Shown here: positions 33,842 through 46,113 of the stretch, one piece after another | How the letters are laid out: the number at the start of each line of letters is the position of its first letter | How positions within the stretch are numbered: the first letter of the stretch is position 1 | IMG/VR virus record: IMGVR_UViG_3300037851_000839 | Span: 1-60,743 of that record | Strand: one strand, 5' to 3' | From: a virus | Taxonomy: Duplodnaviria > Caudoviricetes | Length of the DNA stretch: 60,743 nt | The notes under the pieces: model-generated | Database searches by the model: none | Told to the model about the DNA's origin: nothing | What the model saw: only the letters and a program-made list of their open reading frames with translations | Made by a program: the position numbers and the translations under genes

Positions 33842-34282
33842 CTAGCCGTCCACCTCGGACGCTGAACGCTTGCGCAGCCCATTGGCGAGCTGGTGTGCGT
33901 ACGCGGAGAAGTCGTTGAGGCTGGTCCTCTTCGCGTCGTTGAACCTGGCCAGCGCCTCGGGGGCTGCATCGACTCCGACTGCGGCCACGATGGCCTTCCG
34001 ATCGGAGAGATGCCCGTAGACGATCGACTCCAGGCACTTGGCGACGGCTTCCCGGTGCGCGCCGATGAACTCGCCGAGCTTCTCGGGATAGAGCTTCCCG
34101 AGGAAGTCGTCGATGTACGACTCCGGCGCGAGGAACATGAGCGGAAGGACCTCGCGACCATCCTCCGACGTGAGACCGATCTTCCCTTTTCCCAGGAGGA
34201 TTCCGGCTGCGACGGCAACGCGGTCGTCCTCCGCCTCGATGGTCATCGCGTCGCTCGGGTTGATGATCTCGTAGACGATCAC
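33842..34282 (-). CDS. Hypothetical protein
   Basis: YEIINPSD...RTSLND pattern; GTGA coupling. Confidence 0.55.
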   Translation of the reverse strand: MIVYEIINPSDAMTIEAEDDRVAVAAGILLGKGKIGLTSEDGREVLPLMFLAPESYIDDFLGKLYPEKLGEFIGAHREAVAKCLESIVYGHLSDRKAIVAAVGVDAAPEALARFNDAKRTSLNDFSAYAHQLANGLRKRSASEVDG

Positions 34283-34698
34283 GGCTTTTTCTCCTGGTTC
34301 CGATGTTTCACGTGCAACTGCGAGAGCCGCTCGGACGGCGGCTTCTCCTTCGCCTTCCTGACTCCATTGGCCAGGCACATCGCCTTGATGGTCGGGTACA
34401 GGTCGAGGCCGCCGCTCGTGATCTCGTCGAGCTGCTCGACGGTGATCCCGTTGGTGATGAGGAACATCCTCAGGTGCAGCGACGGGTAGCCGCGCTCCTT
34501 CTGGTCCAGCAGCCAACCCGCGCAGAAATGCTGCTCCTCGCTCGGGCGGAACCGGAACTTGTGGCACCCGAACATCCGACCAAACTGGTCCTGGTCCTGG
34601 GCCAGGAGATTCTCGAACTCGGATCGGTGCCACGTCTTCACGGGCACGTCCTTCCGGTATGGGCAGGACGCGCACGGTGTCTTGGTGTCGAGCTTCAT
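34279..34698 (-). CDS. DUF6283-like Zn-binding protein
   Basis: PCASCPYRKD..FGCH...CAGWL. Confidence 0.7.
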   Translation of the reverse strand: MKLDTKTPCASCPYRKDVPVKTWHRSEFENLLAQDQDQFGRMFGCHKFRFRPSEEQHFCAGWLLDQKERGYPSLHLRMFLITNGITVEQLDEITSGGLDLYPTIKAMCLANGVRKAKEKPPSERLSQLHVKHRNQEKKP

Positions 34699-35216
34699 GC
34701 GACCGACGCCAGCGCCTTCCCGGCCGCCACGAAGAAAGCAACCTCCAGGTCGTGGTTCACGGGGCCCATGGCCCGCACCACCATGGTCGCGCTCTCGACG
34801 TACCCCTTCACGCTCTCCGGCTTCCAGCCAGGCGGCGACTTCACGAGGCTGTCCACGTTGTCCAGCTTGTCTGCGAGCTTCACCAGCTTCGCCCGATGGC
34901 TCATCGTGGGCGCCTTCTCGATCTGCGCCTTCTTGGCCTTGGTCTTGGACCCCGGCGCGTCGGAGACCTCCATGACCACGGAAGCCACCTCCGAGCCGAA
35001 CTCGGCGACCATCTCCTCCTCGGTCACACCGCAGTCCTCGACCACGTCGTGAAGCAGCGCTGCCGCCAGCACCACCTGGTCATCGACCCCGTGGGCCGCC
35101 AGCGTGGCCGCCACGTTCTTCGGATGGGTCACGTACGGGATCCCGTGACCTCCCTTCCGGAACTGGCCTTCGTGAGCCTTCTCTGCGAAGGCCGTTGCCT
35201 TGTCCAACAAGCTCAT
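34695..35216 (-). CDS. HD-domain small alarmone hydrolase (SpoT/Mesh1-like)
   Basis: AH.GQ.RK...PY.THP, AALLHDVVED, VKLADKLDN. Confidence 0.9.
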   Translation of the reverse strand: MSLLDKATAFAEKAHEGQFRKGGHGIPYVTHPKNVAATLAAHGVDDQVVLAAALLHDVVEDCGVTEEEMVAEFGSEVASVVMEVSDAPGSKTKAKKAQIEKAPTMSHRAKLVKLADKLDNVDSLVKSPPGWKPESVKGYVESATMVVRAMGPVNHDLEVAFFVAAGKALASVA

Positions 35217-35225
35217 GACGTTCTC

Positions 35226-35253
35226 ATCTTACGTCATACATAGCGTTGGTCAA
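35226..35253 (-). promoter_or_regulatory. Promoter TTGACC-N16-TAAGAT
   Basis: Motif family, 9 nt upstream of HD gene ATG. Confidence 0.65.
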
Positions 35254-35263
35254 GCAGACTGGT

Positions 35264-37297
35264 TCAGAAGAGGGAAAGCTGAGGGTTTTCTTCAACTTCC
35301 TTGGGCTTGACGACCCTGGCCTCGATAGGCGGCGCTGGCGTGCGCTTCGCGTAGTCCAGTCTGGCCCTGCCGATGCGGAGGAACGGCTGCTCGTCGGTGT
35401 CTGTCAGCTCCATGCCGATGTAGGACATCCCCTCCCACACGGCTGCCATGCCGCCGGCCGCCGACCCGGCGAACGTGTCGAGCACGGTCCCTCCGGGCGG
35501 GGTGACCATCCGGATGATGTGCCGCATGAGGGAGATGGGCTTGACGGTCGGGTGGATGTTCTTGCGCTTGGCCTTCCTGCCCGCGCCCGCGCGAGGGTTG
35601 TCCCTGCCGGCCGACCCTTCCTTGCGCGAAGGGTCCACCCAGGCTTCCTCCATCTCATCGCATCCCAGTTCCCGCTCGGCCGGTCCAACCTTGGGGCAGA
35701 CCACCAGGGTGGGAAGGAGACGGGCGAACAGGTCGTCCGGAACGGACGCCAAGACCTGATCGCCGATCCGGAAGTGCTTGGTGTAGGGGCCGAGCACCCC
35801 GTCGAGATCGTCGTCCTCGGCGCCGAACACCTCGACGCCCGCTACCGGACCTTCGAGATCGAGGTCCGAGCACACCAACAAGGACGGCCAGCGCCCAACA
35901 TCCGTGTCTCCGGCCGCCCTCGAACCGAGAGACAGGCTGCCGTCGTCGGCGGCACTGTACACGCCTCCAGACCGATCTAGCCCGCCGGGGCCGCGTACCC
36001 TGAGCGGTCTGACCATCGCGTTCGGAAGCCTGCATCCGTCGATGTTGAGCGCTCCGACGCCCCACTTCGTGAGGTTCTCGGCCAGCGTCCCCTCCATGGG
36101 CTTCCGCACGAGCACCCACGGTTCGAGCGTCTTGAGCGCCGTACCCCAGCCGCGCCACTTCTCCGCGCCAGCCATCCCCTTGGCCTCCATGGCCTTCATG
36201 GCGTCTAGGCTCTTGGGAAAGACTTGGGCCGAGACCCAGGCTCCGGTCGCTCGGACCTCGAATCCAGCGTCCTCCAGCGCGCTGATCACCCGGTGCATCT
36301 TCCGGTCGGCGCCGAACACCGCTCCGTGAGCACCGGGCTTGAGCACCCGGAAGACCTCTCGCCAGAGGTCCACGTCGAACGCGATGCCGGTCGCGTCCCA
36401 GCCTTGATTCATAAACCCGCCACTGCCAGACTTGGTCCGTGCGTGGGTGATCAAGTCGAACGTCAGTGCCCGGTCTGCGATCGGAGCTACCACGCGGACA
36501 CGAACCGTTTGAAGCACGGCAGGCAGACCACCTGCTCCCGCTCGTGCAGCTACCAGCTTCGCGCCTCCGAGTTGGAGAAGAGCCAGCAGTATGAGTGCCC
36601 GGTCTGCGGGGAGCTGTTCTTCCGGAGCCCCTCCCAGGCTCAGCGCACACGACATGGGCGTCTCGCCTGCTCGAACGCCTGCGGCTACCAGATCCGCCAG
36701 CGCGTGGTGACTCAACCCTACTCCATCCGGGCGGAGTACGACCGAAAGGCTGCTGCGCAGAAGGCCGTCCAGACCAGACATGCCAACGCGAAACCCTACC
36801 CGGAAGCCGCTCGTCAGGCTGCCGCAGCCCGCATGACGAAGCTGATCGCAGAGGGGCTCGTAGCCCCCGTCAGCCGTTTCGAGAAGGAAGCGGCCGAGGT
36901 GTACCGACGCCTGGGATTCGAGGTTCTGACCCAGGTTCCCGTCCGTCGCCCCGACGGCACCTTCTTCTGCGTGTACGACATCGTACTGCCAGCCCGACGC
37001 ATCGTGGTCGAGTGCCATGGAACCTTCTGGCACGGCGGACGATGGACGTGGGAGACCCCCTCCGCGGCACAGGTGAAGAACCTGGGCTACGAGATGAGGA
37101 AGCACATCGTGACGCGCAGCCTTGGGCTCGACCTTCGGGTGCTTCACGAGAAGCACTTCCGCCAGGACCCGCTCGGGGCTTGCCTGGTGTGCGTTCGATA
37201 GCTCGTACGGCGGGTCCGTCGCGAGGGAGTCCACGGAGTTGTCCGGCAACCCCCTCAGCAGGTCCCGGCAGTCACCATGAAGGATCTCAGCTCTCAT
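35264..37297 (-). CDS. N6/N4 DNA methyltransferase (beta class) with 260-codon in-frame insertion
   Basis: HGDC, TDPPY, GFM...WD, RVLKPG, GWGTALK, HPTVKP, VLDTFAGS. Confidence 0.9.
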   Translation of the reverse strand: MRAEILHGDCRDLLRGLPDNSVDSLATDPPYELSNAHQASPERVLAEVLLVKHPKVEPKAARHDVLPHLVAQVLHLCRGGGLPRPSSAVPEGSMALDHDASGWQYDVVHAEEGAVGATDGNLGQNLESQASVHLGRFLLETADGGYEPLCDQLRHAGCGSLTSGFRVGFRVGMSGLDGLLRSSLSVVLRPDGVGLSHHALADLVAAGVRAGETPMSCALSLGGAPEEQLPADRALILLALLQLGGAKLVAARAGAGGLPAVLQTVRVRVVAPIADRALTFDLITHARTKSGSGGFMNQGWDATGIAFDVDLWREVFRVLKPGAHGAVFGADRKMHRVISALEDAGFEVRATGAWVSAQVFPKSLDAMKAMEAKGMAGAEKWRGWGTALKTLEPWVLVRKPMEGTLAENLTKWGVGALNIDGCRLPNAMVRPLRVRGPGGLDRSGGVYSAADDGSLSLGSRAAGDTDVGRWPSLLVCSDLDLEGPVAGVEVFGAEDDDLDGVLGPYTKHFRIGDQVLASVPDDLFARLLPTLVVCPKVGPAERELGCDEMEEAWVDPSRKEGSAGRDNPRAGAGRKAKRKNIHPTVKPISLMRHIIRMVTPPGGTVLDTFAGSAAGGMAAVWEGMSYIGMELTDTDEQPFLRIGRARLDYAKRTPAPPIEARVVKPKEVEENPQLSLF
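36443..37201 (+). CDS. Zn-finger + Vsr/DUF559-like endonuclease, nested antisense in methyltransferase
   Basis: Two CPVC...CS..C repeats, SRFE, YD.......IVVECHGTFWHG, GLDLRVLHE. Confidence 0.85.
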   Translation: MGDQVERQCPVCDRSYHADTNRLKHGRQTTCSRSCSYQLRASELEKSQQYECPVCGELFFRSPSQAQRTRHGRLACSNACGYQIRQRVVTQPYSIRAEYDRKAAAQKAVQTRHANAKPYPEAARQAAAARMTKLIAEGLVAPVSRFEKEAAEVYRRLGFEVLTQVPVRRPDGTFFCVYDIVLPARRIVVECHGTFWHGGRWTWETPSAAQVKNLGYEMRKHIVTRSLGLDLRVLHEKHFRQDPLGACLVCVR

Positions 37298-37520
37298 CGA
37301 CCGGCTCCTTGTCGAAGGGCAGGTCGAGCTGCTTCTTGTTCTTCCGCCTGCGCCTCCCACGCGCTCGGACACGCGCCGAGCTGGCTTTCTGGCTGACACG
37401 CTGACGGTCGGTGCGGTGCGCGCACGCCATCTCGTGCTCACGGAAGTTGCGAGCCTTGAACCCGTGATCCCAGAAGATGGGCCTGCCGCAGATGCGGCAA
37501 TCTCGGGTCGTCCTGTCCAC
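37287..37520 (-). CDS. Small C2HC Zn-finger basic protein
   Basis: CRICG...HEMAC. Confidence 0.5.
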   Translation of the reverse strand: MDRTTRDCRICGRPIFWDHGFKARNFREHEMACAHRTDRQRVSQKASSARVRARGRRRRKNKKQLDLPFDKEPVDES

Positions 37521-37564
37521 TTCCGGACAGCTCTAGCATGGCGCTCTTCACCATACAAGATGCG

Positions 37565-37635
37565 TTCGGGCGGCTGGGGTCGAACCAGCGTCTCCAGATC
37601 CAAAGGCCGGCGTCCTGCCGTTAGACGACACCCGA
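37565..37635 (-). tRNA. tRNA-Gln(TTG)
   Basis: Cloverleaf, loop CTTTGGA. Confidence 0.9.
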
Positions 37636-37636
37636 G

Positions 37637-37711
37637 CACCGCCGACCGGAGTTGAACCGGCGACCTCCTACTTGAAAGGTAGGCGACCCAACCACCAGGG
37701 TCTTCGGCGGC
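37637..37711 (-). tRNA. tRNA-Glu(TTC)
   Basis: Cloverleaf, loop CTTTCAA. Confidence 0.85.
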
Positions 37712-37736
37712 ATGACGACCGCCGTGACCCGTGCGG

Positions 37737-38081
37737 TCACCAGCGGTCGGAGTCTCGTTGCCGGCGGCGGTCGCGACGGTCGTCGTCTCGGTGACCGTCG
37801 TGGCGCTGGCCACGCCCGCCGGCAGGACGTTCTCGCTCGTGGGCCTCGTTGACGCGGATCGGACGGCCGGAGATCAGCGTGCCGTCGGCGACGGCGATGG
37901 CCTCCTTGGCCTTCTCCGGAGACTCCAGCTCGACGAAGCCGAAGCCACGCGCCTGACCGGTCTCCCGGTCGGTGACGATGGTCACCGTGCGCGGCGGATA
38001 GCCGAGGCCGACGAAGGCGTCGCGCAGATCGCGCTCGGTGGCGGTGTAGGACAGGTTCCCGATGAACAGACGAGAGGACAT
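37737..38081 (-). CDS. RRM RNA-binding protein
   Basis: RNP2 LFIGNL, RNP1 RGFGFVEL, IRVNEA. Confidence 0.93.
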   Translation of the reverse strand: MSSRLFIGNLSYTATERDLRDAFVGLGYPPRTVTIVTDRETGQARGFGFVELESPEKAKEAIAVADGTLISGRPIRVNEAHERERPAGGRGQRHDGHRDDDRRDRRRQRDSDRW

Positions 38082-38127
38082 GAGACGTTCATCCTAGCAC
38101 GTGAAGCCCGCGGAGGGACCTCGTCTT

Positions 38128-38733
38128 CTAGTACGTGAGCCCGGCGGCGTACCGGGCGTTCTTCCTTCGCTGCCTCGACCCGCCGTTTCCGCGGTTGCAC
38201 CCTCGGTGGGTCGGTGTCAACGCATGGCAGTTGCAGCACAGTAGTCTCAGGTTTTCCCTGGCGTTGTTGTCGCTGTCGCCGTCTACGTGGTCCAGTTCGA
38301 GCGGGATCGCCTCTCCCTGCCACTCCTCGTGGCCGCATCGCTGACACCTGACCCCGCACTCAGCGATCAAGATCGCCTTCCTGGTATGGTCTGTCCTGGC
38401 CTCGTCCAACGAGGCCACCTTGGCCTTGTGCTTCCCAGCGTTGATGCACACCTGGCAGAAGTGCAGCCACCGCCGATTCCGAGCCGGGACACCGCCGCAA
38501 GATCGACACTTCCACGGCGGTGGCTTAGAAGCGCCTCGCAACTTTGCTGCACAGGATCGGCTGCAACAGCGACTCCGTCGCTTCTCGAACGGCATCGCGT
38601 AGCCGCATTGGGCACACGTCTGCCCGCTCTGCGCAGTTCGCGCTTCGGCGGAGCGTGCCTCGTTCCGAGCCAGATGCAGATCTCTGGTCTTCTCCCAACC
38701 CAGCCTACCAGATTCGCTGTTGTTCAAAGCCAC
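38128..38733 (-). CDS. HNH endonuclease with Zn fingers
   Basis: CQRCG..W.G..IPLELDHVDG...NN..ENLRLLCCNCHALT; true start probably just after the tRNA-Thr. Confidence 0.88.
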   Translation of the reverse strand: MALNNSESGRLGWEKTRDLHLARNEARSAEARTAQSGQTCAQCGYAMPFEKRRSRCCSRSCAAKLRGASKPPPWKCRSCGGVPARNRRWLHFCQVCINAGKHKAKVASLDEARTDHTRKAILIAECGVRCQRCGHEEWQGEAIPLELDHVDGDSDNNARENLRLLCCNCHALTPTHRGCNRGNGGSRQRRKNARYAAGLTY

Positions 38734-38799
38734 CGCCCGGAATCGAACCGAGATCCCCTCAGTACGAAAGAGGGATACTTGCCTTTGTACTACGGTGGC
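38728..38799 (-). tRNA. tRNA-Thr(CGT)
   Basis: Cloverleaf, loop TTCGTAC. Confidence 0.85.
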
Positions 38800-38846
38800 A
38801 CCGTTATGTCAATCAGGTGCGTCGCTGTCTACGCTTCGCGGGCGGA

Positions 38847-38915
38847 AGCCGGCTACGGGGATCGAACCCGCTGTCCCGAGCTACAAGGACGGGATGCCCT
38901 CCATGGGCCGCCGGC
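38847..38915 (-). ncRNA. tRNA-like RNA with 11-nt anticodon loop, downstream of Ro60
   Basis: GCCGGC acceptor, GCGGG-TTCGATC-CCCGT T arm, TCCCG/CGGGA stem with loop TCCTTGTAGCT. Confidence 0.55.
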
Positions 38916-38951
38916 ATGGCCCCAGGGCCAGATGGCCCTGAGGGTTGAGGT

Positions 38952-40544
38952 TCAGAGGGTGACGGCCTCGACCTTCTTCATCCAGTGATCCCGACCGTTG
39001 CCGGCCGAGAACTCGGAGATGAGGGTGAAGACCTCATCGGAGAAGCCGCCGACGTTGAGGATGTCCTCGCGCGTCGGAGCCTGACGGGTGCCGTTCGGCG
39101 TGATGTCGATGCAGACCATCTTCGCATTCGGGCAGCGAGCGCGCAGCGCCTCCCACTCGACCATGGTCTGGGTGGGCGAACTGGTGAGGCCGGGGTACAG
39201 CGAAGTCGCGAAGCCCGGCCGGCTGTCCATCCACGACTCGTTGTCCGAGACGAAGACGGCCAGGTCGATCTTGGCCTTCTCGTGGTTCAGGTAGCGGAGC
39301 GGCGCCGAGCAGTTGGTGCCGCCGGAGCCGCACTTCGCGATCTTCTCGGCGATGGAGACGATCGAGTCGCGCGGGTTGATCCGCAGCCGGACCACGTCCT
39401 CCTTGAAGGGCAGCACGATGGCGTCCGGGTTCCGACGCATGAGCGTCGCGGCGACAAGCGCCGCCACGTCACGGCACTTGACCTTGGTGGTCGCGGTGCC
39501 GCGCGCCCCGGTGACCGGAGAGTCCATCGAGCCGGACACGTCCGGGAAGACGGCCAGGCGCCCCTGGACCTCGGGGACGTTCTTGGTCGCGATCTCCATC
39601 GCGTCCTGGAGCGCCGACTGGATCTCCATCGGGACCCCCTCGGTGTTCTGGTACGCGACGAGGAGCTGGTACGGGAAGACCCGCGCCCGCTCGATCGCCT
39701 TCTCGTCCCGGAGCTTGTCCGCGACGAACTTGACCATCTCGCGGTCGTCGAACACGCCGTGCCGCTGGAAGGTGTTCAGGTTCATCCTGACGGTCTGCCA
39801 GGACGCCTGACGCGCGACGGACGCCCACTGCTCCTTCGTGAGCTTCACGGAGGTGAGCATCTGGAACGGCACGTCCGGCACCGGACGCGACGGGTCCAGC
39901 TTCCACGCCTCGAACGCCTGAACCAGTTCGTCGAGCGTCGCCACGTCGTGCGGCTTGCCGATCAGGTAGGCATAGAGACCCTTCCGAGCGTCCGAAGACG
40001 GCTTCGGGTGGACCATCTTGACCACGTCCGCGAGGCTCGGGTCGTTGCCGACCGATCCGCGGAAGAGCTGTGCATCCGACCTCGCACCGAACCAGCCCTG
40101 GATGAGCTTCTTCGGAGCGGAACCGAGCGACTTCCGGCCAACCTTGCCCGACCGGAGGATCTGGACGAACGTCCTGAGCATCCTCGGGTTGTCGATCACG
40201 CGCGGGAACGCCACGCGCATCGCGGCGATACCGTCCTCACCGCGGGTCGCGAGATGGGCGACCAGAAGTGCCGGCGTATCCTTCATGAAGGCCGAACTGC
40301 GTCCGTAGATCGCGAGCTTCGCCAGGAACTCCGGTGAGCACTTCGCCGCCAGTTCCAGGATCTTGTCGAGCTGCTCCTCCGCCGAGGCGTAGAAGGTGGC
40401 TCCGAGGCATCCCGTGGTGACGTACTGGGCCAGCGCCTCCTGGGGCCCCGCCTCGTACGCGATCCCGCCCGCGCTGTTGATGGTGTTCGTGGCCGGCGGC
40501 GTACGCCCCGGCTTCGCCGACTTGAAGAGCTGCTTGTTGGCCAT
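38952..40544 (-). CDS. rsr: Ro60/TROVE domain RNA-binding protein (Rsr)
   Basis: N.AGG.AY, TG....TFY, MKDTPA, HPKP, RMNLNTF.R, RVFPYQL, vWA DVSGSM, GGTNC, SDNESW, VGGFSD. Confidence 0.95.
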   Translation of the reverse strand: MANKQLFKSAKPGRTPPATNTINSAGGIAYEAGPQEALAQYVTTGCLGATFYASAEEQLDKILELAAKCSPEFLAKLAIYGRSSAFMKDTPALLVAHLATRGEDGIAAMRVAFPRVIDNPRMLRTFVQILRSGKVGRKSLGSAPKKLIQGWFGARSDAQLFRGSVGNDPSLADVVKMVHPKPSSDARKGLYAYLIGKPHDVATLDELVQAFEAWKLDPSRPVPDVPFQMLTSVKLTKEQWASVARQASWQTVRMNLNTFQRHGVFDDREMVKFVADKLRDEKAIERARVFPYQLLVAYQNTEGVPMEIQSALQDAMEIATKNVPEVQGRLAVFPDVSGSMDSPVTGARGTATTKVKCRDVAALVAATLMRRNPDAIVLPFKEDVVRLRINPRDSIVSIAEKIAKCGSGGTNCSAPLRYLNHEKAKIDLAVFVSDNESWMDSRPGFATSLYPGLTSSPTQTMVEWEALRARCPNAKMVCIDITPNGTRQAPTREDILNVGGFSDEVFTLISEFSAGNGRDHWMKKVEAVTL

Positions 40545-40567
40545 AGTCCAACCTCCTGTATCAGCGC

Positions 40568-40595
40568 ATCTTGCGTGATGCGATGAGTTTGTCAA
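40568..40595 (-). promoter_or_regulatory. Promoter TTGACA-N16-CAAGAT upstream of Ro60
   Basis: Motif family. Confidence 0.55.
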
Positions 40596-40622
40596 CTACT
40601 GAACAGGAAGCCATTCCATGAG

Positions 40623-40694
40623 AGCGGCCAGCGGGAGTCGAACCCGCTTCGACCTCGTTGGCAACGAGGTGCCTTACCGTTCGGCCCTGACCGC
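40623..40694 (-). tRNA. tRNA-Gly(GCC)
   Basis: Cloverleaf, loop TTGCCAA. Confidence 0.88.
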
Positions 40695-40699
40695 GTGAG

Positions 40700-40784
40700 C
40701 GGAGGAAGGAGGTCCCGACCCCCATGCCCTTGCAGGCACCCTTCGGTTAGCAACCGAGGCCGGCCCCTGACCGGTTCTTCCTCC
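40700..40784 (-). tRNA. tRNA-Ser(GCT), atypical T loop
   Basis: Long variable arm, loop TTGCTAA, T region GGTCGGGAC. Confidence 0.8.
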
Positions 40785-41280
40785 TCTTGTCGTAGCACCG
40801 ACCACACATCCCCTTGGCGTAGTGCGGCCTCTCCGAGGTCCCGCACGAGACGCATCCTTCTGGCTTGGGTCCTCCGCGGCCCGGTCCGCCCCAGGCACCC
40901 TTGACCTCGGCCCTGATCCGCGCGCCGTCCGGCCTCGACCCGAGGAACGCGATGATGCGCTCCACGTCCTCTTCGTCGATCGACGTGTACCTCCGGTTCC
41001 GATGCTTGGCGACGTACGCGGAGGTCCGCTTCCCGATGACGATCCCGAGCGCGCGGGCGGCGCTCCGGATCTGGCTGCGCCCGTACCCAGTGGCCTCAGC
41101 CAAGCCGCACACGGTGAGCGTCCCCCTGGACGGGGCCCCGAGAGAGAGCTTCTTGGCTCTCTGGACGATGGCCATCGGCGTTCTTCCGTGCCGGCGCGCG
41201 ATGGTGTCCAGCGAGAACACGCCCCAGTCGAAGGCGAGCTGCCTGTCTTGCTCCTCGGTCCACGGTCGTCGCTTGATCAT
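40747..41280 (-). CDS. HTH DNA-binding protein with C-terminal Zn finger
   Basis: WTEEQD..L......IARRHGRT..AI..RA, CVSCG...HYAKGMCGRCY; ends inside tRNA-Ser(GCT). Confidence 0.7.
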   Translation of the reverse strand: MIKRRPWTEEQDRQLAFDWGVFSLDTIARRHGRTPMAIVQRAKKLSLGAPSRGTLTVCGLAEATGYGRSQIRSAARALGIVIGKRTSAYVAKHRNRRYTSIDEEDVERIIAFLGSRPDGARIRAEVKGAWGGPGRGGPKPEGCVSCGTSERPHYAKGMCGRCYDKRRKNRSGAGLGC

Positions 41281-41287
41281 CTCGTAG

Positions 41288-41373
41288 CGGAAGACGGAGG
41301 TCCCGACCCCCACACCCTTGCGGGTGCGTTCCGCTTTCGAGGCGGACCTGGCTCCCTGGCCAGTTCGTCTTCC
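41288..41373 (-). tRNA. tRNA-Ser(CGA), atypical T loop
   Basis: Loop CTCGAAA, long variable arm. Confidence 0.8.
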
Positions 41374-41375
41374 AA

Positions 41376-41460
41376 CGGAAACCGGAGGTCCCGACCCTCA
41401 GACCCTTGCGGGTCCCCGCTCGCTTCCAACGAGGGCTGGCCCCTGGCCAGTTCGGCTTCC
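41376..41460 (-). tRNA. tRNA-Ser(GGA), atypical T loop
   Basis: Loop TTGGAAG, long variable arm. Confidence 0.8.
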
Positions 41461-41464
41461 AGTG

Positions 41465-41548
41465 CGGAGAGAGGAGGTCTCGAACCTCAGCGCCGAAGCG
41501 CCCCTCCGCTTTCAAGGCGGTGCCGGCGTCCTAGCCGGTTCCCTCTCC
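41465..41548 (-). tRNA. tRNA-Ser(TGA)
   Basis: Loop CTTGAAA, long variable arm. Confidence 0.82.
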
Positions 41549-41698
41549 GTGCTTCATCTCCCGAAGCTCCACCGCCTCGACGCGGCCCCGCTTCGTCATG
41601 TTCCAGCTCTTGGCCTTGGCGGCCCCGTTCAGCTTCCACGGCTTGCAGAGCTTGCACGCAGCCCTCGCCGCCGGTGGCTTCCTCTTCTTGTGGTGCAT
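41531..41698 (-). CDS. Small basic CxxC peptide (55 aa, not in ORF track)
   Basis: GGAGG SD; MHHKKRKPPAARAACKLCKPWKLNG...; ends inside tRNA-Ser(TGA). Confidence 0.6.
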   Translation of the reverse strand: MHHKKRKPPAARAACKLCKPWKLNGAAKAKSWNMTKRGRVEAVELREMKHGEGTG

Positions 41699-41766
41699 GG
41701 TGTCCTCCTCGGACGCGGCGGCCAGCCGCGTCTACATGGAGGACTTCGATGGCGTCTGCATGACGT

Positions 41767-41910
41767 TCACCCGTGCTTCTTCGTGAGGTGGTACTGCCCG
41801 CACTGGTCGCACCGGTAGACCCGGAGCGCGGCGGCCAGGTGTCGCATGACACGCCTCGCGTGCTCCTTCGAGCCGTAGCAGTGCTTCCCTGTCTTGGTGC
41901 AGACCTTCAT
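41767..41910 (-). CDS. Small Zn-ribbon protein (47 aa)
   Basis: AGGAG SD; C..TGK.CY.S..HA...RVYRCDQCGQYHLT. Confidence 0.65.
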   Translation of the reverse strand: MKVCTKTGKHCYGSKEHARRVMRHLAAALRVYRCDQCGQYHLTKKHG

Positions 41911-41944
41911 GATGGACTCCTGTCGGGGAGGCCCATCGTACCAG

Positions 41945-42016
41945 TCGGGGTAGCCGGGATCGAACCGGCGACCTCTCGTCCCCCAGACGAGCGCGCTTCC
42001 GCTGCGCCATACCCCG
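41945..42016 (-). tRNA. tRNA-Pro(GGG)
   Basis: Cloverleaf, loop CTGGGGG. Confidence 0.9.
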
Positions 42017-42159
42017 AGAGATCGTTGCCCTGGGCTTTCCCGAACGACGCAGCGGACGCACGCCGCCTTCGCCGGTACTCGCCCAGGGCTGTCACACGCA
42101 GCGTCCCGCCCCACGATCCGAGGGCAGGTGCGGCACCTGGTTGCCCAGGTGCGGACTCG

Positions 42160-42696
42160 TCAGGACCCCTCTTCGAGGGCCCCGTTCCAGTAGAACCAGC
42201 TCGCCCACGCGTCGGGCATGTTGGTCAGCTCGAAGCGCATCGTCACCGCCGGCAGGTACACCGGCTTCACGGGCTTCTTGAGCAGCTTCATGCCGGCCTG
42301 CTCGGGCGTCCGGTCCCGCTTGCCCTCGTTGCATGGGTAGCACGCCATCACGATGTTCTCCCAGACCGTCTTGCCGCCCTGCGCGCGTGGCGTGACGTGG
42401 TCGTAGGTGAGCTTCGAGAGGGGGTGCTTCGTCCCGCAATACTGGCAGGTGAAGGCGTCCCGCGTGGCCACGTTGATGCGCGAGAACTTGACCATCTGCT
42501 TGCGCCCGCGCACGCGCGAGAGCAGGCGGACGACCGCCGGCATCTTGATGGAGATCGAGACGCTGCGGATGACCTCGTCCTCGTACTCCGACACGACCTC
42601 GACCTTGCCGTCGAAGATCATGTGGATCGCTCGCTGCCAAGAGACGATGCGGTGGGGCTGGTAGCCCTGATCCAGAACCAATGTTGACCTACTCAC
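42160..42696 (-). CDS. HNH endonuclease (McrA-like)
   Basis: AGGAGG SD; LVLDQGYQP, FSR.NV..RD..TCQYCG, LTYDHV.PR..GG...WENIV.AC..CN..K. Confidence 0.92.
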   Translation of the reverse strand: MSRSTLVLDQGYQPHRIVSWQRAIHMIFDGKVEVVSEYEDEVIRSVSISIKMPAVVRLLSRVRGRKQMVKFSRINVATRDAFTCQYCGTKHPLSKLTYDHVTPRAQGGKTVWENIVMACYPCNEGKRDRTPEQAGMKLLKKPVKPVYLPAVTMRFELTNMPDAWASWFYWNGALEEGS

Positions 42697-42723
42697 GGGA
42701 CTCCTCCTTTCTTCGCCAGTTAG

Positions 42724-42810
42724 TGCGAGCGGCGGGAATCGAACCCGCACGACCACGGAGGGGTCGCCTGATCTTGAGGCAGGTGTGTCTACCAGTTCCA
42801 CCACGCTCGC
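42724..42810 (-). tRNA. tRNA-Leu(CAA)
   Basis: Loop CTCAAGA, long variable arm. Confidence 0.88.
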
Positions 42811-42817
42811 GTTTCGA

Positions 42818-42900
42818 TGTCCAGGGAGGGAGTCGAACCCTCACGGTACGAAGACCACCGGCTTCTGAGACCGGCGCGGCTGCCATTACGCCACCTGGAC
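42818..42900 (-). tRNA. tRNA-Leu(CAG)
   Basis: Loop CTCAGAA. Confidence 0.9.
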
Positions 42901-42905
42901 GAACA

Positions 42906-42988
42906 TGCGGACGGAGGGAGTCGAACCCTCACGGTACAAAGACCACCAGCACCTCAAGCTGGCGCGGCTGCCATTACGCCACGTCCGC
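42906..42988 (-). tRNA. tRNA-Leu(GAG)
   Basis: Loop TTGAGGT. Confidence 0.9.
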
Positions 42989-42991
42989 GAA

Positions 42992-43122
42992 TCGATCTAC
43001 GACGGGAGGGGTCGTTCTGGGACAGAACCCACGGACACTGAGGACCATCGGCGCCGACGGCCCACTGCGCAGCGACCGGTTCCAGGCGTTGGCGCCTGGT
43101 GACCCCTCTCGTCGTAGATCGA
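42992..43122 (-). ncRNA. Unassigned structured RNA with 22-bp terminal stem
   Basis: TCGATCTACGACGAGAGGGGTC pairs with GACCCCTCCCGTCGTAGATCGA (one mismatch); internal hairpins. Confidence 0.55.
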
Positions 43123-43123
43123 G

Positions 43124-43195
43124 TACACGGGGTGGGGATCGAACCCACGGCCTGCGGTGTGTGGGACCGCCGCTCTTCCTCTGAGCTACCCGTGC
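43124..43195 (-). tRNA. tRNA-Val(CAC), C33
   Basis: Loop CCCACAC. Confidence 0.82.
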
Positions 43196-43240
43196 TCATC
43201 GAACTATCAATCCCGAACCGGATTGAGAGTTCGCTGATAG

Positions 43241-43312
43241 TCGGGGTGGTGGGGGTCGAACCCACGACCTCTCGGTCCCGAACCGAGCGCGCTTCCACTG
43301 CGCCACACCCCG
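43241..43312 (-). tRNA. tRNA-Pro(CGG)
   Basis: Loop TTCGGGA. Confidence 0.9.
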
Positions 43313-43415
43313 AGGTTCCTGGCGGATCGTACGCGGGTCGCCCCCAGCACGTTGTCTCCCACGGATGCCGCCAGGCTCACCCGTGCATTCGCCGGTCCCG
43401 AAGGACCGTCTGGAG

Positions 43416-43490
43416 TGGTGCCTGAGGAGGGACTCGAACCCCACGCGGCCGGGCTTATGATGCCCGCCGCCGCATCCCGCGGTCCCAGGC
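43416..43490 (-). tRNA. Atypical tRNA(CAT) (Met or Ile2), encoded CCA
   Basis: Loop ATCATAA, irregular D arm, ends ACCA. Confidence 0.65.
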
Positions 43491-43548
43491 GTTACATTGT
43501 CCGCGGTCGCCCCGTGTTCTCCTCTCGGAGGGTTCGGGACGCCGGGTA

Positions 43549-43623
43549 TTGCGAGAGGTTGGATTTGAACCAACGACCTCCGGCTTATGAGGCCGGCGAG
43601 CTACCAGACTGCTCCACTCCGCA
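43549..43623 (-). tRNA. tRNA-Met(CAT), initiator-like D and T arms
   Basis: GAGCAGTCTGGTAGCTCG, loop CTCATAA, TTCAAAT. Confidence 0.85.
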
Positions 43624-43658
43624 TCGTGATGCTGGCCCGAGATGGGCCAGCAGTCAAG

Positions 43659-45341
43659 TCACTCCCGTTCGAGCAGGCGCCGAAGGATCTTCGACTGCTG
43701 CTCCATCCGGCGGACCTCGTCGAGGACCGCCTTGCGGAGCCAGTCCTCGTCGCCCTTGCCGCTCTTCATGTAGGCCACGCGGTTGCGCATGGTCTTCACG
43801 ATGTTGTCGTACTCCTCGATGGCCTCCTCGATGTCGTCCGACCCGGCGAGGCGCGCTTCGATGATGGCCTCCTCCAGCGCCTCGACCTTCATCCGCGACT
43901 TCACCGCGCCGATGTGATCGGACTCGGTCTCGAAGTAGCGCTTGAGGATGATGTCGGCCATGTCGCGACCGGAGACGCGCACGACCGTGAGGTAGAAGAG
44001 CAGCGACGCGTTCTCCGGCACGGCCCGCACGGTCTTGCCGAGCTTCGGGCTGACCTTGGCGGTCATCATGAGCCACTTGTTGAACGCCTTGCGCGGGTTG
44101 CCAGCGATGGCGTCCTGGGCGAGATCGATCCGCTCGGCGCCGAACAGCTCGGCCAACTCCTCCTGGGAGAGGTCGTCGATGATCTGGCGCTGGCGCTTGA
44201 AGAGCGCCTGTTCCGGCTGCCAGTCGGCGCCCAGCTCCTTCTTGAAGAGCCCGAGAGCCTTCGAGCTGATCTTGAACCCACCCGGCTTGGCCTGCTCGTC
44301 CTCGCCCGGGAACGCGAGCGCGGCGTCGGTCTGCTGCGCCTCGTGCAGACCCGGACCCCTGCGCTCGTCGGACTCGAACGCACCGAGGTCGTAGGGCTTG
44401 CTGCCGTCGAGCGGCACCGCCCGGTCCTTGCCACGGGTGGAGGAACTGAGCCCCCACTTCTGGCCGGCGACCTTGACCGCGCTCCCGATGAGGCCGGCCT
44501 TCACGTTCGAGGGGATCTCGATCCCGAACTGCTTCTCGATGGCGGCCAGCTCCTCGCGGACCGTGTCCTCGATCGTCGGCTGGGCGGCGACGAGCTTGAC
44601 CAGCTTCTCGGCCGTCTCCGGGTCGATCTGGGTGAACCCGCTGGCGTTCATCGAACCGATCCGGCGACCGTCATCGACGGAGGACCAGCCCGGCTTGATG
44701 ATGAGCGCGTTCTTGTCCTTGCGGAACGCCCGCGCGATGCCGCCGTACCCCGAGAAGAGGCGGAACCTCCAGAGGTTGATGCCCATGAGAGCCTGGTTGA
44801 CCAGGAGGTTGTGCGGCGGCTTCCACCAGCCGTGACCCTTCTTGGTCTTCGTGAGCTTCTGGTTGAGGACCTCGACGCCGGCCTTGTCCTGGGCCCACTC
44901 GTCCTCGGGCTCGGCCGCTGGCTCGTAGTCCTCGTCGAGAGGAGCCGCGCCGTACCAGTAGTCGAAGCCCTCGGAGAGGTCGTCGTCGATCCCGAGCCCT
45001 TCGTGGATGGCATCGAACCCGAGCTGGTCGATGTCCTCCTTGCGCGCGAACTTCTCGGCGTCCTTGACGAAGTCCTCGGGCGACATCGTCCGGAGATCCG
45101 AGTGCAGCGACCTCGCTCCGTTCATGGAGTGGGCGTTGCCGAAGGTGTAGTAGACCGCCTGCGACTTGAACCAGAGGCGAACTTGACCGTCCGGCGACGT
45201 GGCGTGCGGGATCTTGAGGCTCCGGTCCGAGAGCTTCCAGCCGTCCTTCTGGAGCTTGTCGAGCACGGCGTTGCGCGCCGCAGCGAAGGTCGGCCCCTTC
45301 TCGGTCAGAAGGGCCTCGGAAAGCAGCGTGGCGATGCTCAT
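43659..45341 (-). CDS. Large multi-domain hypothetical protein, possible head-internal protein
   Basis: 560 aa; N-terminus LLSEALLTE and C-terminus RRLLERE. Confidence 0.6.
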   Translation of the reverse strand: MSIATLLSEALLTEKGPTFAAARNAVLDKLQKDGWKLSDRSLKIPHATSPDGQVRLWFKSQAVYYTFGNAHSMNGARSLHSDLRTMSPEDFVKDAEKFARKEDIDQLGFDAIHEGLGIDDDLSEGFDYWYGAAPLDEDYEPAAEPEDEWAQDKAGVEVLNQKLTKTKKGHGWWKPPHNLLVNQALMGINLWRFRLFSGYGGIARAFRKDKNALIIKPGWSSVDDGRRIGSMNASGFTQIDPETAEKLVKLVAAQPTIEDTVREELAAIEKQFGIEIPSNVKAGLIGSAVKVAGQKWGLSSSTRGKDRAVPLDGSKPYDLGAFESDERRGPGLHEAQQTDAALAFPGEDEQAKPGGFKISSKALGLFKKELGADWQPEQALFKRQRQIIDDLSQEELAELFGAERIDLAQDAIAGNPRKAFNKWLMMTAKVSPKLGKTVRAVPENASLLFYLTVVRVSGRDMADIILKRYFETESDHIGAVKSRMKVEALEEAIIEARLAGSDDIEEAIEEYDNIVKTMRNRVAYMKSGKGDEDWLRKAVLDEVRRMEQQSKILRRLLERE

Positions 45342-45343
45342 GG

Positions 45344-45865
45344 TCAGACCTGCTCGGCGTGGATGTGGATGTCGGGCAGCGAGCTGGCCGCCACCTGATC
45401 GGCGATGTTGGCCGCGAACTGGATCCAGGTGACCTCGCTGAGGAGCGTCGTGCGGTCGAAGTTCGACCACGGGTCGCCCGACGCCAGCCGGTACTGGAGG
45501 GTGATGCCCGCCTGCGCGACCAGCGGCAGCACGCTGGTGCCGGCCACGCCGGGCATGAACCCGCGCACCCCCTTGGTGCCGTCCACGGTGACCGGGACGA
45601 AGAACTGGATCGGGTCGAACTCGACCCTGTTCGTCCCGAGCGCGGCGATGGCCACGTCGATCGACTGGGTCGTCGGGTTCTCCGTGACCGCGCCGGACGT
45701 GGACGACGCCTTCGGCTGGCCGAGAACGATCTCCTGCTCGCGGGCGAGGTTCTGGATCCTCGTCTTCATCGCCGCCTTCGTGGCGGAGTCGAGGTTCGGA
45801 TCGAGGTCCACCGACCGCTGGAGGAGGGTCTGGAAGACGGCGAAGGTGGTGACCGTGCTGGCCAT
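45344..45865 (-). CDS. Hypothetical (possibly virion) protein
   Basis: AGGAGG SD; 173 aa. Confidence 0.6.
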   Translation of the reverse strand: MASTVTTFAVFQTLLQRSVDLDPNLDSATKAAMKTRIQNLAREQEIVLGQPKASSTSGAVTENPTTQSIDVAIAALGTNRVEFDPIQFFVPVTVDGTKGVRGFMPGVAGTSVLPLVAQAGITLQYRLASGDPWSNFDRTTLLSEVTWIQFAANIADQVAASSLPDIHIHAEQV

Positions 45866-45923
45866 GAAGTGGGCCTCCTGACGGGCGAGTGTAGGCCGAC
45901 CTCGCCGCCGGATCTACCTCTAG

Positions 45924-45997
45924 CACCCCCGGCAGGGATCGAACCTGCGGACCTTCGCCTTCGGAGGGCGACGCTCTTCCATCTGAGCTACGAGGGC
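45924..45997 (-). tRNA. tRNA-Arg(CCG)
   Basis: Loop CTCCGAA. Confidence 0.9.
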
Positions 45998-46011
45998 ATG
46001 GATCCGTCGAG

Positions 46012-46087: not shown

Positions 46088-46113
46088 AAGTCTGTCGTGC
46101 GTTCGCCGCCTAG

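What the first reader, a model, noticed from the sequence alone, without database searches (positions are those of the whole stretch)
36419..37201. Endonuclease gene hidden antisense inside a methyltransferase whose frame stays open
Seen: the normally contiguous DPPYEL-GFM...WD segment of the methyltransferase is separated by about 780 nt (260 codons) with no stop on the methyltransferase strand, while the opposite strand encodes a coherent Zn-finger + Vsr/DUF559-like nuclease (GTG 36443 to TAG 37201). The nuclease TAG is exactly the reverse complement of the Leu codon of PPYEL. The sense translation lacks intein blocks (no terminal HN followed by C/S/T), and there is little non-coding room for a group I intron core. 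Inference: a homing element that sits beside the catalytic motif and avoids killing its host gene by dual-strand coding, or is removed by an unknown mechanism. From memory, an out-of-frame HNH insertion in actinobacteriophage methylases (ShiLan) is a partial precedent, which should be verified; antisense orientation and a different nuclease family would be distinct.
Basis: partly seen in the sequence, partly recalled or inferred. Interest (0 to 1): 0.88.

Follow-up and report, generated by a model that had tools for sequence, protein, structure and literature searches.

The report
Backwards nuclease gene inside methylase gene
A selfish DNA-cutting-enzyme gene lies backwards, codon for codon, inside a large phage's DNA methylase gene. 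Related copies never carry a codon that would stop the methylase frame, so the methylase is most likely translated straight through it without an intron or intein.

Summary
A 780-nt insert (36419-37198) splits DPPYEL from GFMNQGWD in a PF01555 methylase (35264-37297, minus strand) and has no stop in the methylase frame. The plus strand encodes a 252-aa nuclease with two zinc fingers and a Vsr-like domain (36443-37201). Its TAG is the complement of the Leu-33 codon.

In this 66% GC genome the open frame alone is not significant: the codon-aligned antisense frame is open in 177 of 285 control windows. The family settles the question. Of 91 distinct homologous nuclease genes, 64 lie antisense directly after DPPY, and 64 of 64 have no antisense stop, down to 38% GC. 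The conservative joint probability is about 1e-76. A syntenic relative (L004) has the uninterrupted methylase.

No intron (Rfam) or intein (Pfam) signal was found. The methylase-frame peptide evolves nearly neutrally and is predicted to be disordered. The insert is far less diverged than its flanks (dS 0.18 against 0.81), which fits homing.

Best reading: a splicing-free homing element tolerated by read-through. It is an antisense, Vsr-type variant of the published ShiLan "hidden HNH" insertions. This scan had already noted the same arrangement on other genomes. No expression, methylation or cleavage data exist.

The parts
35264..37297 (-). DNA methyltransferase ORF read through the insert (677 aa, P0002). 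It has beta-class order: DPPY (motif IV) at residues 28-31 and the FAGSAAGG region near the C end.
   Evidence: Translation. Pfam PF01555, 2.9e-17. Solved relatives by sequence are CcrM 6pbd and M.RsrI 1eg2, E about 1e-6.
37199..37297 (-). Methylase part before the insert (codons 1-33, MRAEILHGDC...TDPPYEL). Its last codon, CTA (Leu-33), is the complement of the nuclease stop TAG.
   Evidence: AlphaFold pLDDT is about 90 for residues 1-30.
36419..37198 (-). Insert as read in the methylase frame: 260 codons (residues 34-293), no stop, predicted disordered.
   Evidence: Alignment with insertion-free L004. pLDDT is below 50 for residues 36-295. GC3 is 0.66 in this frame against 0.80 in the nuclease frame.
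35264..36418 (-). Methylase part after the insert (GFMNQGWD... to the stop).
   Evidence: Window against L003: dS 0.81, dN/dS 0.17 over 383 codons.
36443..37201 (+). Nuclease gene, 252 aa (P0001), GTG start. It is antisense to the methylase and codon-aligned with it.
   Evidence: 40 homologues in the protein collection. AlphaFold mean pLDDT 87. Top fold matches are Vsr 1cw0 (E 6.5e-5) and I-Bth0305I 3r3p (E 0.013).
36467..36682 (+). Two zinc-finger-like repeats of the nuclease (CPVC...TTCSRSCSY and CPVC...ACSNACGY, residues about 9-80). This is the presumed DNA-binding part.
   Evidence: Invariant C12, C31, C35, C52, C55, C76, C80 in alignment A1. DNA direct repeats D1 and D4, spaced 129-135 nt. 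The same module is fused to HNH domains in P0037-P0042.
36872..37162 (+). Vsr-like catalytic domain of the nuclease (residues about 144-240, with D179, E190, H192, H197).
   Evidence: Pfam Vsr 3.2e-5, below the cut-off. The A1 profile matches Vsr 1cw0 at 5.8e-5, with D179/H192/H197 aligned to the Vsr PD, TH and WH positions. Invariant D179, E190, G193, H197.

Best explanation
A mobile, homing-type endonuclease gene is inserted backwards into a phage beta-class DNA methyltransferase gene, two codons after the catalytic DPPY motif. The nuclease has two N-terminal zinc fingers and a Vsr-like catalytic domain of the kind seen in the EDxHD homing endonuclease I-Bth0305I.

The element carries no intron and no intein. 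It sits in the one antisense register where host-frame stops can arise only from three nuclease codons: TTA, CTA and TCA. All three are avoided. The nuclease stop codon is hidden in the complement of a conserved methylase Leu (or Ser) codon, and the insert length is a multiple of three.

The methylase is therefore translated straight through as one 677-aa protein. It carries a roughly 260-residue, essentially unconstrained and probably disordered loop next to its active site.

The nuclease is presumably made from its own antisense transcript. It would cut insertion-free methylase alleles in co-infecting phages, and repair from the invaded allele would copy the element in, together with flanking methylase sequence.

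Shown here: the anatomy, the absence of stops across a diverged family, the existence of an empty allele, the nuclease fold, and the lower divergence of the insert than of its flanks. Inferred: translation through the insert, methylase activity, nuclease expression, and cleavage or homing.
For: 1. Precise insertion. A syntenic relative (L004, a 198-kb contig with the same RRM and HD neighbours) has the uninterrupted gene...DPPYEY-SFMN.... L003 has the same 260-codon insert.

2. Stop avoidance.
- 91 distinct homologous nuclease genes were taken from 155 loci with a nuclease match.
- 64 of them lie antisense directly after a [DNS]PP[YFWH] motif.
- 64 of 64 have 0 stops in the codon-aligned antisense frame, while the other two antisense frames carry 1-44 stops.
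- In 61 of 64 the methylase continues in the same frame.
- Using each locus's own methylase codon usage, P(0 stops) is 6.6e-10 to 0.26 per locus.
- The product is 1e-143 over 53 loci. Taking only the largest P from each of 26 clusters (60% aa identity), it is 1e-76.
- 11 homologues that stand alone carry 3-22 such stops.

3. No splicing signal. Rfam finds only tRNAs. Pfam finds only PF01555. The junction residues are L|S and G|GF, with no C/S/T at +1. No flanking repeats.

4. The nuclease is the constrained frame.
- Eight independent close pairs give 277/131/434 differences at nuclease codon positions 1/2/3.
- Nuclease dN/dS is 0.10-0.38; methylase-frame dN/dS over the insert is 0.39-1.16.
- At deep divergence, codon sharing at identical residues is only 0.396 against 0.374 expected.
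- pLDDT is 87 for the nuclease and below 50 for insert residues 36-295 of the read-through product.

5. The methylase stays conserved in invaded alleles. D28, P29, P30, Y31, L33, G294, F295, M296, W300 and D301 are invariant in 33 of 33 read-through methylases. dN/dS of the C part is 0.17.

6. Mobility.
- Insert dS is 0.18 against 0.81 in the C part (window against L003).
- Identity falls with distance from the insert.
- L030/L031 inserts are 94% identical in methylases with dN 0.43.
- L015/L017 nucleases are identical in aa while the next 110 methylase residues are 75% identical.
- The same zinc-finger module occurs on HNH nucleases that also lie beside methylase genes.

7. Fold. Vsr 1cw0 E 6.5e-5 and I-Bth0305I 3r3p E 0.013. 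23 of 33 family members hit Pfam Vsr.

8. Published precedent of the principle: PMC11855218.
Against: - In this window alone the open frame is unremarkable: P about 0.2-0.6.
- There is no RNA or protein evidence. Only DNA runs hold the sequence. Read-through, methylase activity and nuclease expression are all inferred.
- The window's nuclease has a GTG start, no Shine-Dalgarno-like motif, and no TANNNT box at the spacing seen in 24 of 62 relatives.
- A loop of about 260 residues two residues after DPPY lies next to the active site and could impair the enzyme.
- A few invaded alleles have degenerate motifs (DPSY in L110, DSPY in L137, DVPY in L046), and one (L097) has its N part out of frame.
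- The lower dS of the insert could in part reflect constraint on both strands rather than recent transfer. Window against L003 gives a symmetric 34/7/31 pattern.
- Across 1225 pairs only 1 shows nuclease identity exceeding methylase identity by more than 0.25, so wide phylogenetic discordance was not demonstrated.
- The 'stand-alone' control of 11 genes was picked as the non-embedded genes that have stops. Another 8 non-embedded genes beside methylase genes have none.
- The loci are related by descent, so the joint probabilities overstate independence.
Confidence: 0.75

Rival explanations
1. Restriction-modification-like or exclusion module. The nuclease and the methylase are a functional pair: the nuclease attacks DNA lacking the methylase's mark. 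Nesting the nuclease antisense in the methylase gene gives tight linkage and mutual transcriptional control. The association is functional rather than parasitic.
For: - The nuclease family is found almost only beside or inside methylases of this family. 116 of the 155 loci with a nuclease match have a methylase match.
- The divergent adjacent arrangement (for example L013, L055, L118, L131) is a common R-M layout.
- Some family members hit restriction-enzyme Pfam models (MTES_1575 in 5 of 33, PvuRts1I-like_N in 4 of 33).
- Methylase catalytic motifs are kept in invaded alleles.
Against: - A syntenic relative keeps the methylase without any nuclease (L004), and hundreds of phage homologues are orphan methylases.
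- The insert is much less diverged than its host gene in several pairs, whereas R and M genes of one system should co-diverge.
- The insertion point is a fixed site at the most conserved coding motif, which is the hallmark of homing.
- The zinc-finger module is swapped between Vsr-like and HNH catalytic domains.
- The closest solved homing enzyme, I-Bth0305I, shares the fold.
Confidence: 0.12
2. The insert is removed after all, by an undescribed RNA splicing or protein splicing/processing mechanism, and the mature methylase lacks it.
For: - A 260-residue loop next to the active site seems costly.
- Translation through the insert, which protein-level removal would also need, fits the stop-free frame.
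- The ShiLan authors also left splicing open as unlikely but untested (PMC11855218, discussion).
Against: - RNA splicing would not require a stop-free frame or a length divisible by three, yet both hold in 64 of 64.
- No Rfam intron. The nuclease ORF fills 756 of the 780 insert bases, leaving no room for a ribozyme core.
- Protein splicing needs conserved catalytic residues. The methylase-frame peptide has dN/dS 0.39-1.16, no Hint/intein Pfam hit, no C/S/T at +1, and pLDDT below 50.
Confidence: 0.05
3. GC-rich accident in a dead gene. The nuclease insertion killed a dispensable methylase, and the frame is open only because TTA, CTA and TCA are rare at 66% GC.
For: In this genome the aligned antisense frame is open in 177 of 285 windows of 260 codons. 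The methylase is probably dispensable for phages (stated for ShiLan relatives in PMC11855218).
Against: - Register and length must also fit, a chance of about 1/9 before openness.
- Homologues at 38-50% GC are equally stop-free (P 1e-3 to 1e-9 each).
- Methylase parts of invaded alleles keep their invariant motifs and have dN/dS 0.17-0.36.
Confidence: 0.03

Closest known systems
[quoted passage not shown] 2023, PMC9957025; Arsenault et al. 2025, PMC11855218)
   Same: - It is an insertion at a conserved site of a phage orphan DNA methylase, present in only some homologues.
- It has no stop in the host frame and no detectable intron or intein.
- A second reading frame encodes an endonuclease with zinc fingers.
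- The in-frame product is predicted to be a poorly structured loop.
- Its distribution suggests homing.
- The window's methylase is a 32-36% identical relative of mycobacteriophage methylases.
   Different: - ShiLan's ORF is on the same strand in the third frame; here it is on the opposite strand and codon-aligned.
- The nuclease is HNH (195 aa) there and Vsr-like (252 aa) here.
- The insertion site differs; here it is two codons after DPPY.
- The ShiLan work covers a handful of actinophages. Here 64 distinct copies span 38-70% GC, which allows a statistical test of stop avoidance.
- The paper does not mention antisense cases (0 occurrences).
Pacc40 gp60 hidden insertion versus the free-standing HNH genes upstream of the methylase in phages Tiff81 and Sashimi (PMC11855218, section 3.6)
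   Same: One nuclease family is found either inside the methylase gene or as a separate gene directly upstream of an uninterrupted methylase. The same holds here: embedded in 64 loci, and adjacent-divergent in L013, L055, L118, L131 and others.
   Different: Different nuclease family, strand and site.
EDxHD homing endonucleases, prototype I-Bth0305I (Taylor et al. 2011, PMC3239194; PDB 3r3p)
   Same: - Both have a Vsr-like catalytic domain with the Asp and His of the Vsr active site.
- Both are modular, with an N-terminal DNA-binding part and a C-terminal nuclease.
- Both are phage-borne and target a conserved motif of a DNA-metabolism gene.
   Different: - I-Bth0305I sits in a self-splicing group I intron of recA, and relatives sit in inteins. 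No splicing element is present here.
- Its N-terminal part is NUMOD/HTH, not zinc fingers.
- Sequence similarity is weak (profile E 0.06).
Long antisense overlapping genes of bacteria and viruses (for example PMC9927249; review PMC8227390; seen only as search listings)
   Same: Two long open frames lie on opposite strands of the same DNA.
   Different: In those cases the second protein is usually a new gene born by overprinting. Here an old nuclease gene was inserted, and the host-frame product is an unconstrained passenger peptide kept only free of stops.

Membership tests
ShiLan-type splicing-free 'hidden endonuclease' insertion in a phage methylase | Insertion at a conserved site of a PF01555 phage methylase, absent from close homologues | tested here: met
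   L004 lacks it, while the window and L003 have it at the same codon.
ShiLan-type splicing-free 'hidden endonuclease' insertion in a phage methylase | No stop codon in the host frame, and a length that keeps the frame | tested here: met
   260 codons with 0 stops. 64 of 64 embedded relatives have 0 stops.
ShiLan-type splicing-free 'hidden endonuclease' insertion in a phage methylase | No intron or intein signature | tested here: met
   Rfam at E<=1 gives only tRNAs. Pfam gives only PF01555.
ShiLan-type splicing-free 'hidden endonuclease' insertion in a phage methylase | Hidden ORF on the same strand, out of frame, encoding an HNH endonuclease | tested here: not met
   The ORF is on the opposite strand and codon-aligned. 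Its catalytic domain is Vsr-like, not HNH.
EDxHD (Vsr-like) homing endonucleases | Vsr-like nuclease fold with the active-site Asp and His conserved | tested here: met
   Foldseek gives 1cw0 at 6.5e-5 and 3r3p at 0.013. D179, H192 and H197 align with the Vsr D, H, H positions. D179 and H197 are invariant in 33 sequences. The residue numbers of Vsr and I-Bth0305I are taken from PMC3239194.
EDxHD (Vsr-like) homing endonucleases | Carried by a self-splicing intron or intein, or free-standing beside one | tested here: not met
   No intron or intein was detected.
EDxHD (Vsr-like) homing endonucleases | Cuts the uninterrupted allele next to its insertion site | not testable with these tools
   This needs enzyme assays. 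Only indirect signs of mobility exist.
Intein | Hint-domain blocks in the host-frame peptide, a terminal HN, and C/S/T at +1 | tested here: not met
   The insert peptide begins SNAHQ and ends KSGSG, followed by GFM. No Pfam intein/Hint hit. pLDDT is below 50. Near-neutral dN/dS.
Group I / group II intron | Conserved ribozyme core detectable by covariance models, with no need for an open frame | tested here: not met
   No Rfam intron match in 34000-40000 at E<=1. Only 24 nt of the insert lie outside the nuclease ORF. Frame-keeping in 64 of 64 would be unexplained.
Type II restriction-modification pair | Nuclease and methylase inherited together, with matching specificity | tested here: inconclusive
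   The association with methylase genes is strong. However, an empty allele exists, and the insert and host gene differ in divergence. Specificity is not testable.
Beta-class N6/N4 DNA methyltransferase (PF01555) | DPPY motif IV near the N end and the AdoMet-binding FxGxG region near the C end | tested here: met
   DPPY at residues 28-31 and FAGSAAGG near residue 608. PF01555 at 2.9e-17. CcrM and M.RsrI are the nearest solved relatives.

The most novel reading that the evidence does not exclude
These cassettes form a distinct class of mobile element. They are homing-endonuclease genes adapted as a unit to be read backwards by the host ribosome.

- They keep the codon-aligned opposite strand free of stops even when they sit between or beside methylase genes: 8 of 8 such copies.
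- They hide their own stop codon in a conserved host Leu or Ser codon.
- In many members they appear to be expressed from a leaderless antisense promoter inside the host gene. TANNNT ends 5-7 nt before the start codon in 24 of 62, against a background of 0.055.

If so, 'antisense read-through' would be a third general way, beside introns and inteins, for a homing endonuclease to occupy the catalytic core of a gene without destroying it. The invaded methylase would work with a 260-residue disordered loop beside its active site.
Probability: 0.5. Interest if true: 0.8.

Novelty: new variant of a known kind. Interest (0 to 1): 0.68.

Why it matters
Homing endonucleases are thought to survive inside essential or conserved coding sequence only with the help of a self-splicing intron or intein. 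Otherwise they must stay between genes. The ShiLan papers proposed a splicing-free alternative from a few actinophage genes.

This family is an opposite-strand version with a different nuclease. It has many diverged copies over a wide GC range. That allows the first strong statistical case that selection keeps the host frame open, and so that the host protein is translated through the parasite.

Practical consequences:
- It gives a natural example of a fully nested antisense gene pair about 750 nt long.
- Gene callers will annotate only one of the two genes. The methylase swallows the nuclease.
- It shows that a loop next to a methylase active site tolerates very large insertions.
- It supplies candidate site-specific nucleases aimed at the DPPY-coding sequence.

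Tried and rejected
- Near and protein searches of the phage collection with the window's methylase DNA and nuclease found nothing close.
- A second nuclease query (P0026) found only distant free-standing homologues: Microcystis phage MaeS, and Dickeya phage F-LimVII annotated as a putative homing endonuclease. No cultured phage with the embedded arrangement was found by these three queries.
- The apparent extension of the Rhizobium phage RHph_X2_25 match into the insert was a chance extension. That methylase is 458 aa and uninterrupted.
- The scan of species genomes gave only metagenome-assembled genomes and 3 near-full-length matches. I did not analyse them further.
- Flanking direct or inverted repeats that could mark transposition or inversion: none at the junctions.
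- Promoter and terminator consensus scan: nothing upstream of the nuclease.
- Sequencing runs: no RNA holder is listed. Four DNA runs kept as contigs were laid. One contig of X1 (1443 nt, 0 other letters) bridges both junctions, and no joint skipping the insert was seen. This says nothing about expression or splicing, and a missing empty allele in contigs proves nothing.
- I tested whether the methylase-frame peptide is itself under selection, as the symmetric 34/7/31 pattern of window against L003 suggested. I rejected this as a general feature: eight independent pairs give 277/131/434 and methylase-frame dN/dS 0.39-1.16, and codon sharing at deep divergence is barely above expectation.
- A global test of discordance between nuclease and methylase identities was weak (r 0.36; 1 of 1225 pairs with an excess above 0.25).
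- Literature searches for a published antisense case found none. This covers only the held library. Supplementary files of the ShiLan papers, which may list further insertions, were not seen.
- Not used: complex prediction, the search of protein representatives and the protein-atlas search.
Full report
**What is in the window.** The window is a 60.7-kb viral contig (CheckV 32% complete) of 65.7% GC with 30 tRNA genes. On the minus strand, ATG 37297 to stop 35264 is one open frame of 677 codons. Pfam recognises it as an N6_N4 DNA methylase (PF01555, 2.9e-17). Its nearest solved relatives by sequence are CcrM and M.RsrI.

Two related viral contigs were found with the C part as query. L004 comes from a 198-kb contig and has the same RRM-protein and HD-protein neighbours. 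It encodes a 456-aa methylase reading ...TDPPYEY-SFMNARWD.... L003 and the window carry exactly 260 extra codons between DPPYEL and GFMNQGWD. In window coordinates the insert is 36419-37198.

The plus strand reads GTG 36443 to TAG 37201, 252 aa. The TAG is the complement of the CTA codon of Leu-33.

**Which strand codes.** Inside the insert, the GC-by-position signature of this genome's genes (GC3 0.82-0.84 in the methylase flanks) is found in the nuclease frame (GC3 0.80). It is not found in the methylase frame (GC3 0.66, GC1 0.79).

The nuclease has 40 homologues in the protein collection. They share two CxxC...CSRxCSY zinc-finger-like repeats and a C-terminal domain with invariant D179, E190, G193 and H197.
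- Pfam Vsr is hit by 23 of 33 members.
- A profile of the family matches E. coli Vsr at 5.8e-5, with the active-site Asp and two His aligned.
- The AlphaFold model (pLDDT 87) finds Vsr (1cw0, E 6.5e-5) and the catalytic domain of the homing endonuclease I-Bth0305I (3r3p, E 0.013).

**Is the open methylase frame more than chance?** Not in this window taken alone. The two frames are codon-aligned, so a stop in the methylase frame can arise only from a TTA, CTA or TCA codon of the nuclease. These three are 0.39% of codons in the window's likely genes.
- The aligned antisense frame is open over 260 codons in 177 of 285 control windows. The other two antisense frames are open in 0 of 285 each.

**The family test.** With the nuclease alignment I fetched 78 viral and 80 metagenome loci. 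tblastn found the nuclease in 155 loci and the methylase in 116 of them. After removing identical genes and genes without a complete 3' end, 91 distinct nuclease genes remained, the window included.
- 64 of the 91 lie antisense with their stop within a few codons after a [DNS]PP[YFWH] motif.
- All 64 have 0 stops in the codon-aligned antisense frame, while the other two antisense frames hold 1-44 stops.
- In 61 of 64 the methylase C part follows in the same frame. I did not resolve the other three one by one.
- The stop of the nuclease is opposite a Leu codon in 49 and a Ser codon in 15.
- 256-288 codons separate DPPY from FMxxxWD.
- The set spans 38-70% GC.

For each locus I took the Leu and Ser codon usage of its own methylase C part. 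The chance of no TTA/CTA/TCA is 6.6e-10 to 0.26 per locus. The product is 1e-143 over the 53 loci with at least 100 background codons. Taking only the least significant member of each of 26 clusters (single linkage at 60% aa identity), it is 1e-76. The loci share ancestry, so these are not true probabilities, but the direction is beyond doubt.

Of the 27 genes not classed as embedded:
- 11 carry 3-22 aligned antisense stops.
- 5 are embedded with a variant motif or a shifted site (L046, L110, L137, L114, L097).
- 3 keep a short in-frame methylase remnant (L128, L146, L149).
- 8 lie beside or between methylase genes and still have no stop.

L097 is the only case where the methylase N part is out of frame.

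**What the open frame means.** RNA splicing would require neither a stop-free frame nor a length divisible by three. No Rfam intron is detected, and only 24 of the 780 bases lie outside the nuclease ORF.

Protein splicing would require conserved catalytic residues in the methylase-frame peptide. That peptide has no Pfam hit and no C/S/T at the +1 position. It is predicted with pLDDT below 50 over residues 36-295, while the methylase core on both sides is confident.

The peptide also evolves almost neutrally.
- In eight independent close pairs, the differences fall 277/131/434 on nuclease codon positions 1/2/3.
- Nuclease dN/dS is 0.10-0.38, and methylase-frame dN/dS is 0.39-1.16.
- At 25-40% nuclease identity, identical residues share the same codon in 0.396 of cases against 0.374 expected.

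So the 'dual coding' is asymmetric. The nuclease is the real gene. The opposite strand is a passenger peptide that must simply not stop.

The methylase parts stay conserved in invaded alleles. DPPY, L33 and GFM..WD are invariant in 33 of 33, and dN/dS is 0.17 in window against L003. The simplest reading is translation straight through, giving an active enzyme with a large floppy loop. This was also proposed for ShiLan.

**Mobility.**
- Between the window and L003 the insert has dS 0.18, while the methylase C part has dS 0.81.
- Nucleotide identity is 0.90-0.94 in the insert and the N part, and declines with distance into the C part. This is the pattern expected from homing with co-conversion.
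- L030 and L031 carry 94% identical inserts in methylases with dN 0.43.
- L015 and L017 have identical nuclease proteins next to methylase stretches that are 75% identical.
- The same zinc-finger module occurs fused to HNH domains (P0037-P0042). Loci that match only this zinc-finger part also have methylase matches (L041, L043, L050).
- Relatives of the nuclease stand divergently upstream of uninterrupted methylases (L013, L055, L118, L131).

Against this, a global comparison of identities was weak. Constraint on both strands could depress dS somewhat. Homing is therefore well supported but inferred.

**Expression of the nuclease.** Of 62 embedded genes, 48 start with ATG, 13 with GTG and 1 with TTG. 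23 have a Shine-Dalgarno-like core. 24 have TANNNT ending 5-7 nt before the start codon, against 0.055 at random places, which suggests leaderless antisense transcripts. The window's copy shows neither signal (GTG start, with CAGACT ending 10 nt upstream). Its expression is thus the weakest link locally. No RNA run holds the sequence. DNA contigs confirm the occupied allele but carry no further information.

**Comparison with what is known.** The principle is a homing-type endonuclease hidden in a stop-free, non-splicing insertion of a phage PF01555 methylase. It was published for the ShiLan domain (PMC9957025; PMC11855218). I read the abstracts, the introduction, results and discussion of PMC11855218, and section 3.2 of PMC9957025.
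- There the ORF is on the same strand in the third frame, the nuclease is HNH, and the site differs. Antisense cases are not mentioned.
- Only these two papers in the held library use the term 'ShiLan domain'. Searches for an antisense case found none. Supplements were not available.
- The nuclease resembles the EDxHD family (PMC3239194, passages read) in fold and active site. It lacks that family's intron or intein carrier and its NUMOD region.

I therefore file it as working like a ShiLan-type element and like an EDxHD enzyme. It is not a member of the first as defined (strand, frame and nuclease family differ). Membership of the second is only partly supported.

**Earlier notes of this scan.** After reaching this reading, I found eight earlier notes of this scan that describe the same antisense arrangement on other genomes, with the same conclusion. 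They agree with my own tests. They are not independent evidence.

**Verdict.** The element is a new, opposite-strand, Vsr-type variant of a recently described kind. The comparative evidence for selection on the host frame is unusually strong. There is no experimental evidence yet for read-through, methylase activity or homing.

Noticed in passing
window 38128-38733 (-): A 201-aa ORF with an HNH motif lies between tRNA genes (Pfam HNH 4e-4 and HNH_3 3.5e-4, both below cut-off). Its N part has a CSRSC..KLRG stretch that resembles the zinc-finger repeats of the embedded nuclease. It may be a second, free-standing homing-type nuclease with a related DNA-binding module.
   Followed up: partly
window 37564-49327 (-): 30 tRNA genes, all on the minus strand. 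They are interleaved with a Ro60-like TROVE/vWA protein (38952-40595) and an RRM protein (37737-38081). Beyond the methylase lie an HD-domain protein (34695-35216) and a DUF6283 protein (34279-34698). This is an RNA-centred gene set in a probably large phage of about 190 kb.
   Followed up: no
L128 and L149 (below the nuclease start): The nuclease cassette is followed by a short in-frame remnant of the methylase C-part start. A further methylase then follows whose N part and C part are in different frames, with a stop directly after D(S/P)PY. A few extra bases sit exactly at the usual insertion site. This may be a repair scar or a cleavage-resistant allele, or it may be an assembly error.
   Followed up: partly
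L114 and L097: The insertion lies about 16-20 codons further into the methylase, with the FMxxxWD stretch duplicated on both sides. The ShiLan paper notes that the start of its insert resembles the sequence after its insertion site. L097 is the only locus where the methylase N part is out of frame with the insert.
   Followed up: partly
L033, L132, L134, L038, L104, L116, L120, L121: Eight nuclease genes lie beside or between methylase genes rather than inside one. They still have no stop in the codon-aligned antisense frame (256-278 codons, GC 0.55-0.63). Either they left an embedded position recently, or the cassette is kept stop-free as a unit.
   Followed up: partly
L009, L088, L090, L091, L124, L129 and 18 others: TANNNT hexamers such as TATACT, TATAAT and TAGAAT end 5-7 nt before the nuclease start codon in 24 of 62 embedded copies, against a background of 0.055. 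This looks like a -10 box for a leaderless antisense mRNA inside the methylase gene. It is absent in the window's copy.
   Followed up: partly
window methylase codons about 375-380, against L003 and L004: The window's methylase lacks about 49 residues that L003 and L004 have after ...EAKGMAGAE. Codons 421-481 are almost unalignable between the window and L003 (identity 0.32-0.54). These are hypervariable stretches, perhaps the target-recognition region.
   Followed up: no
window 37287-37520 (-): A 77-aa ORF with CxxC...C..H and an Arg/Lys-rich tail overlaps the methylase start (ATGA). It has no Pfam hit.
   Followed up: no
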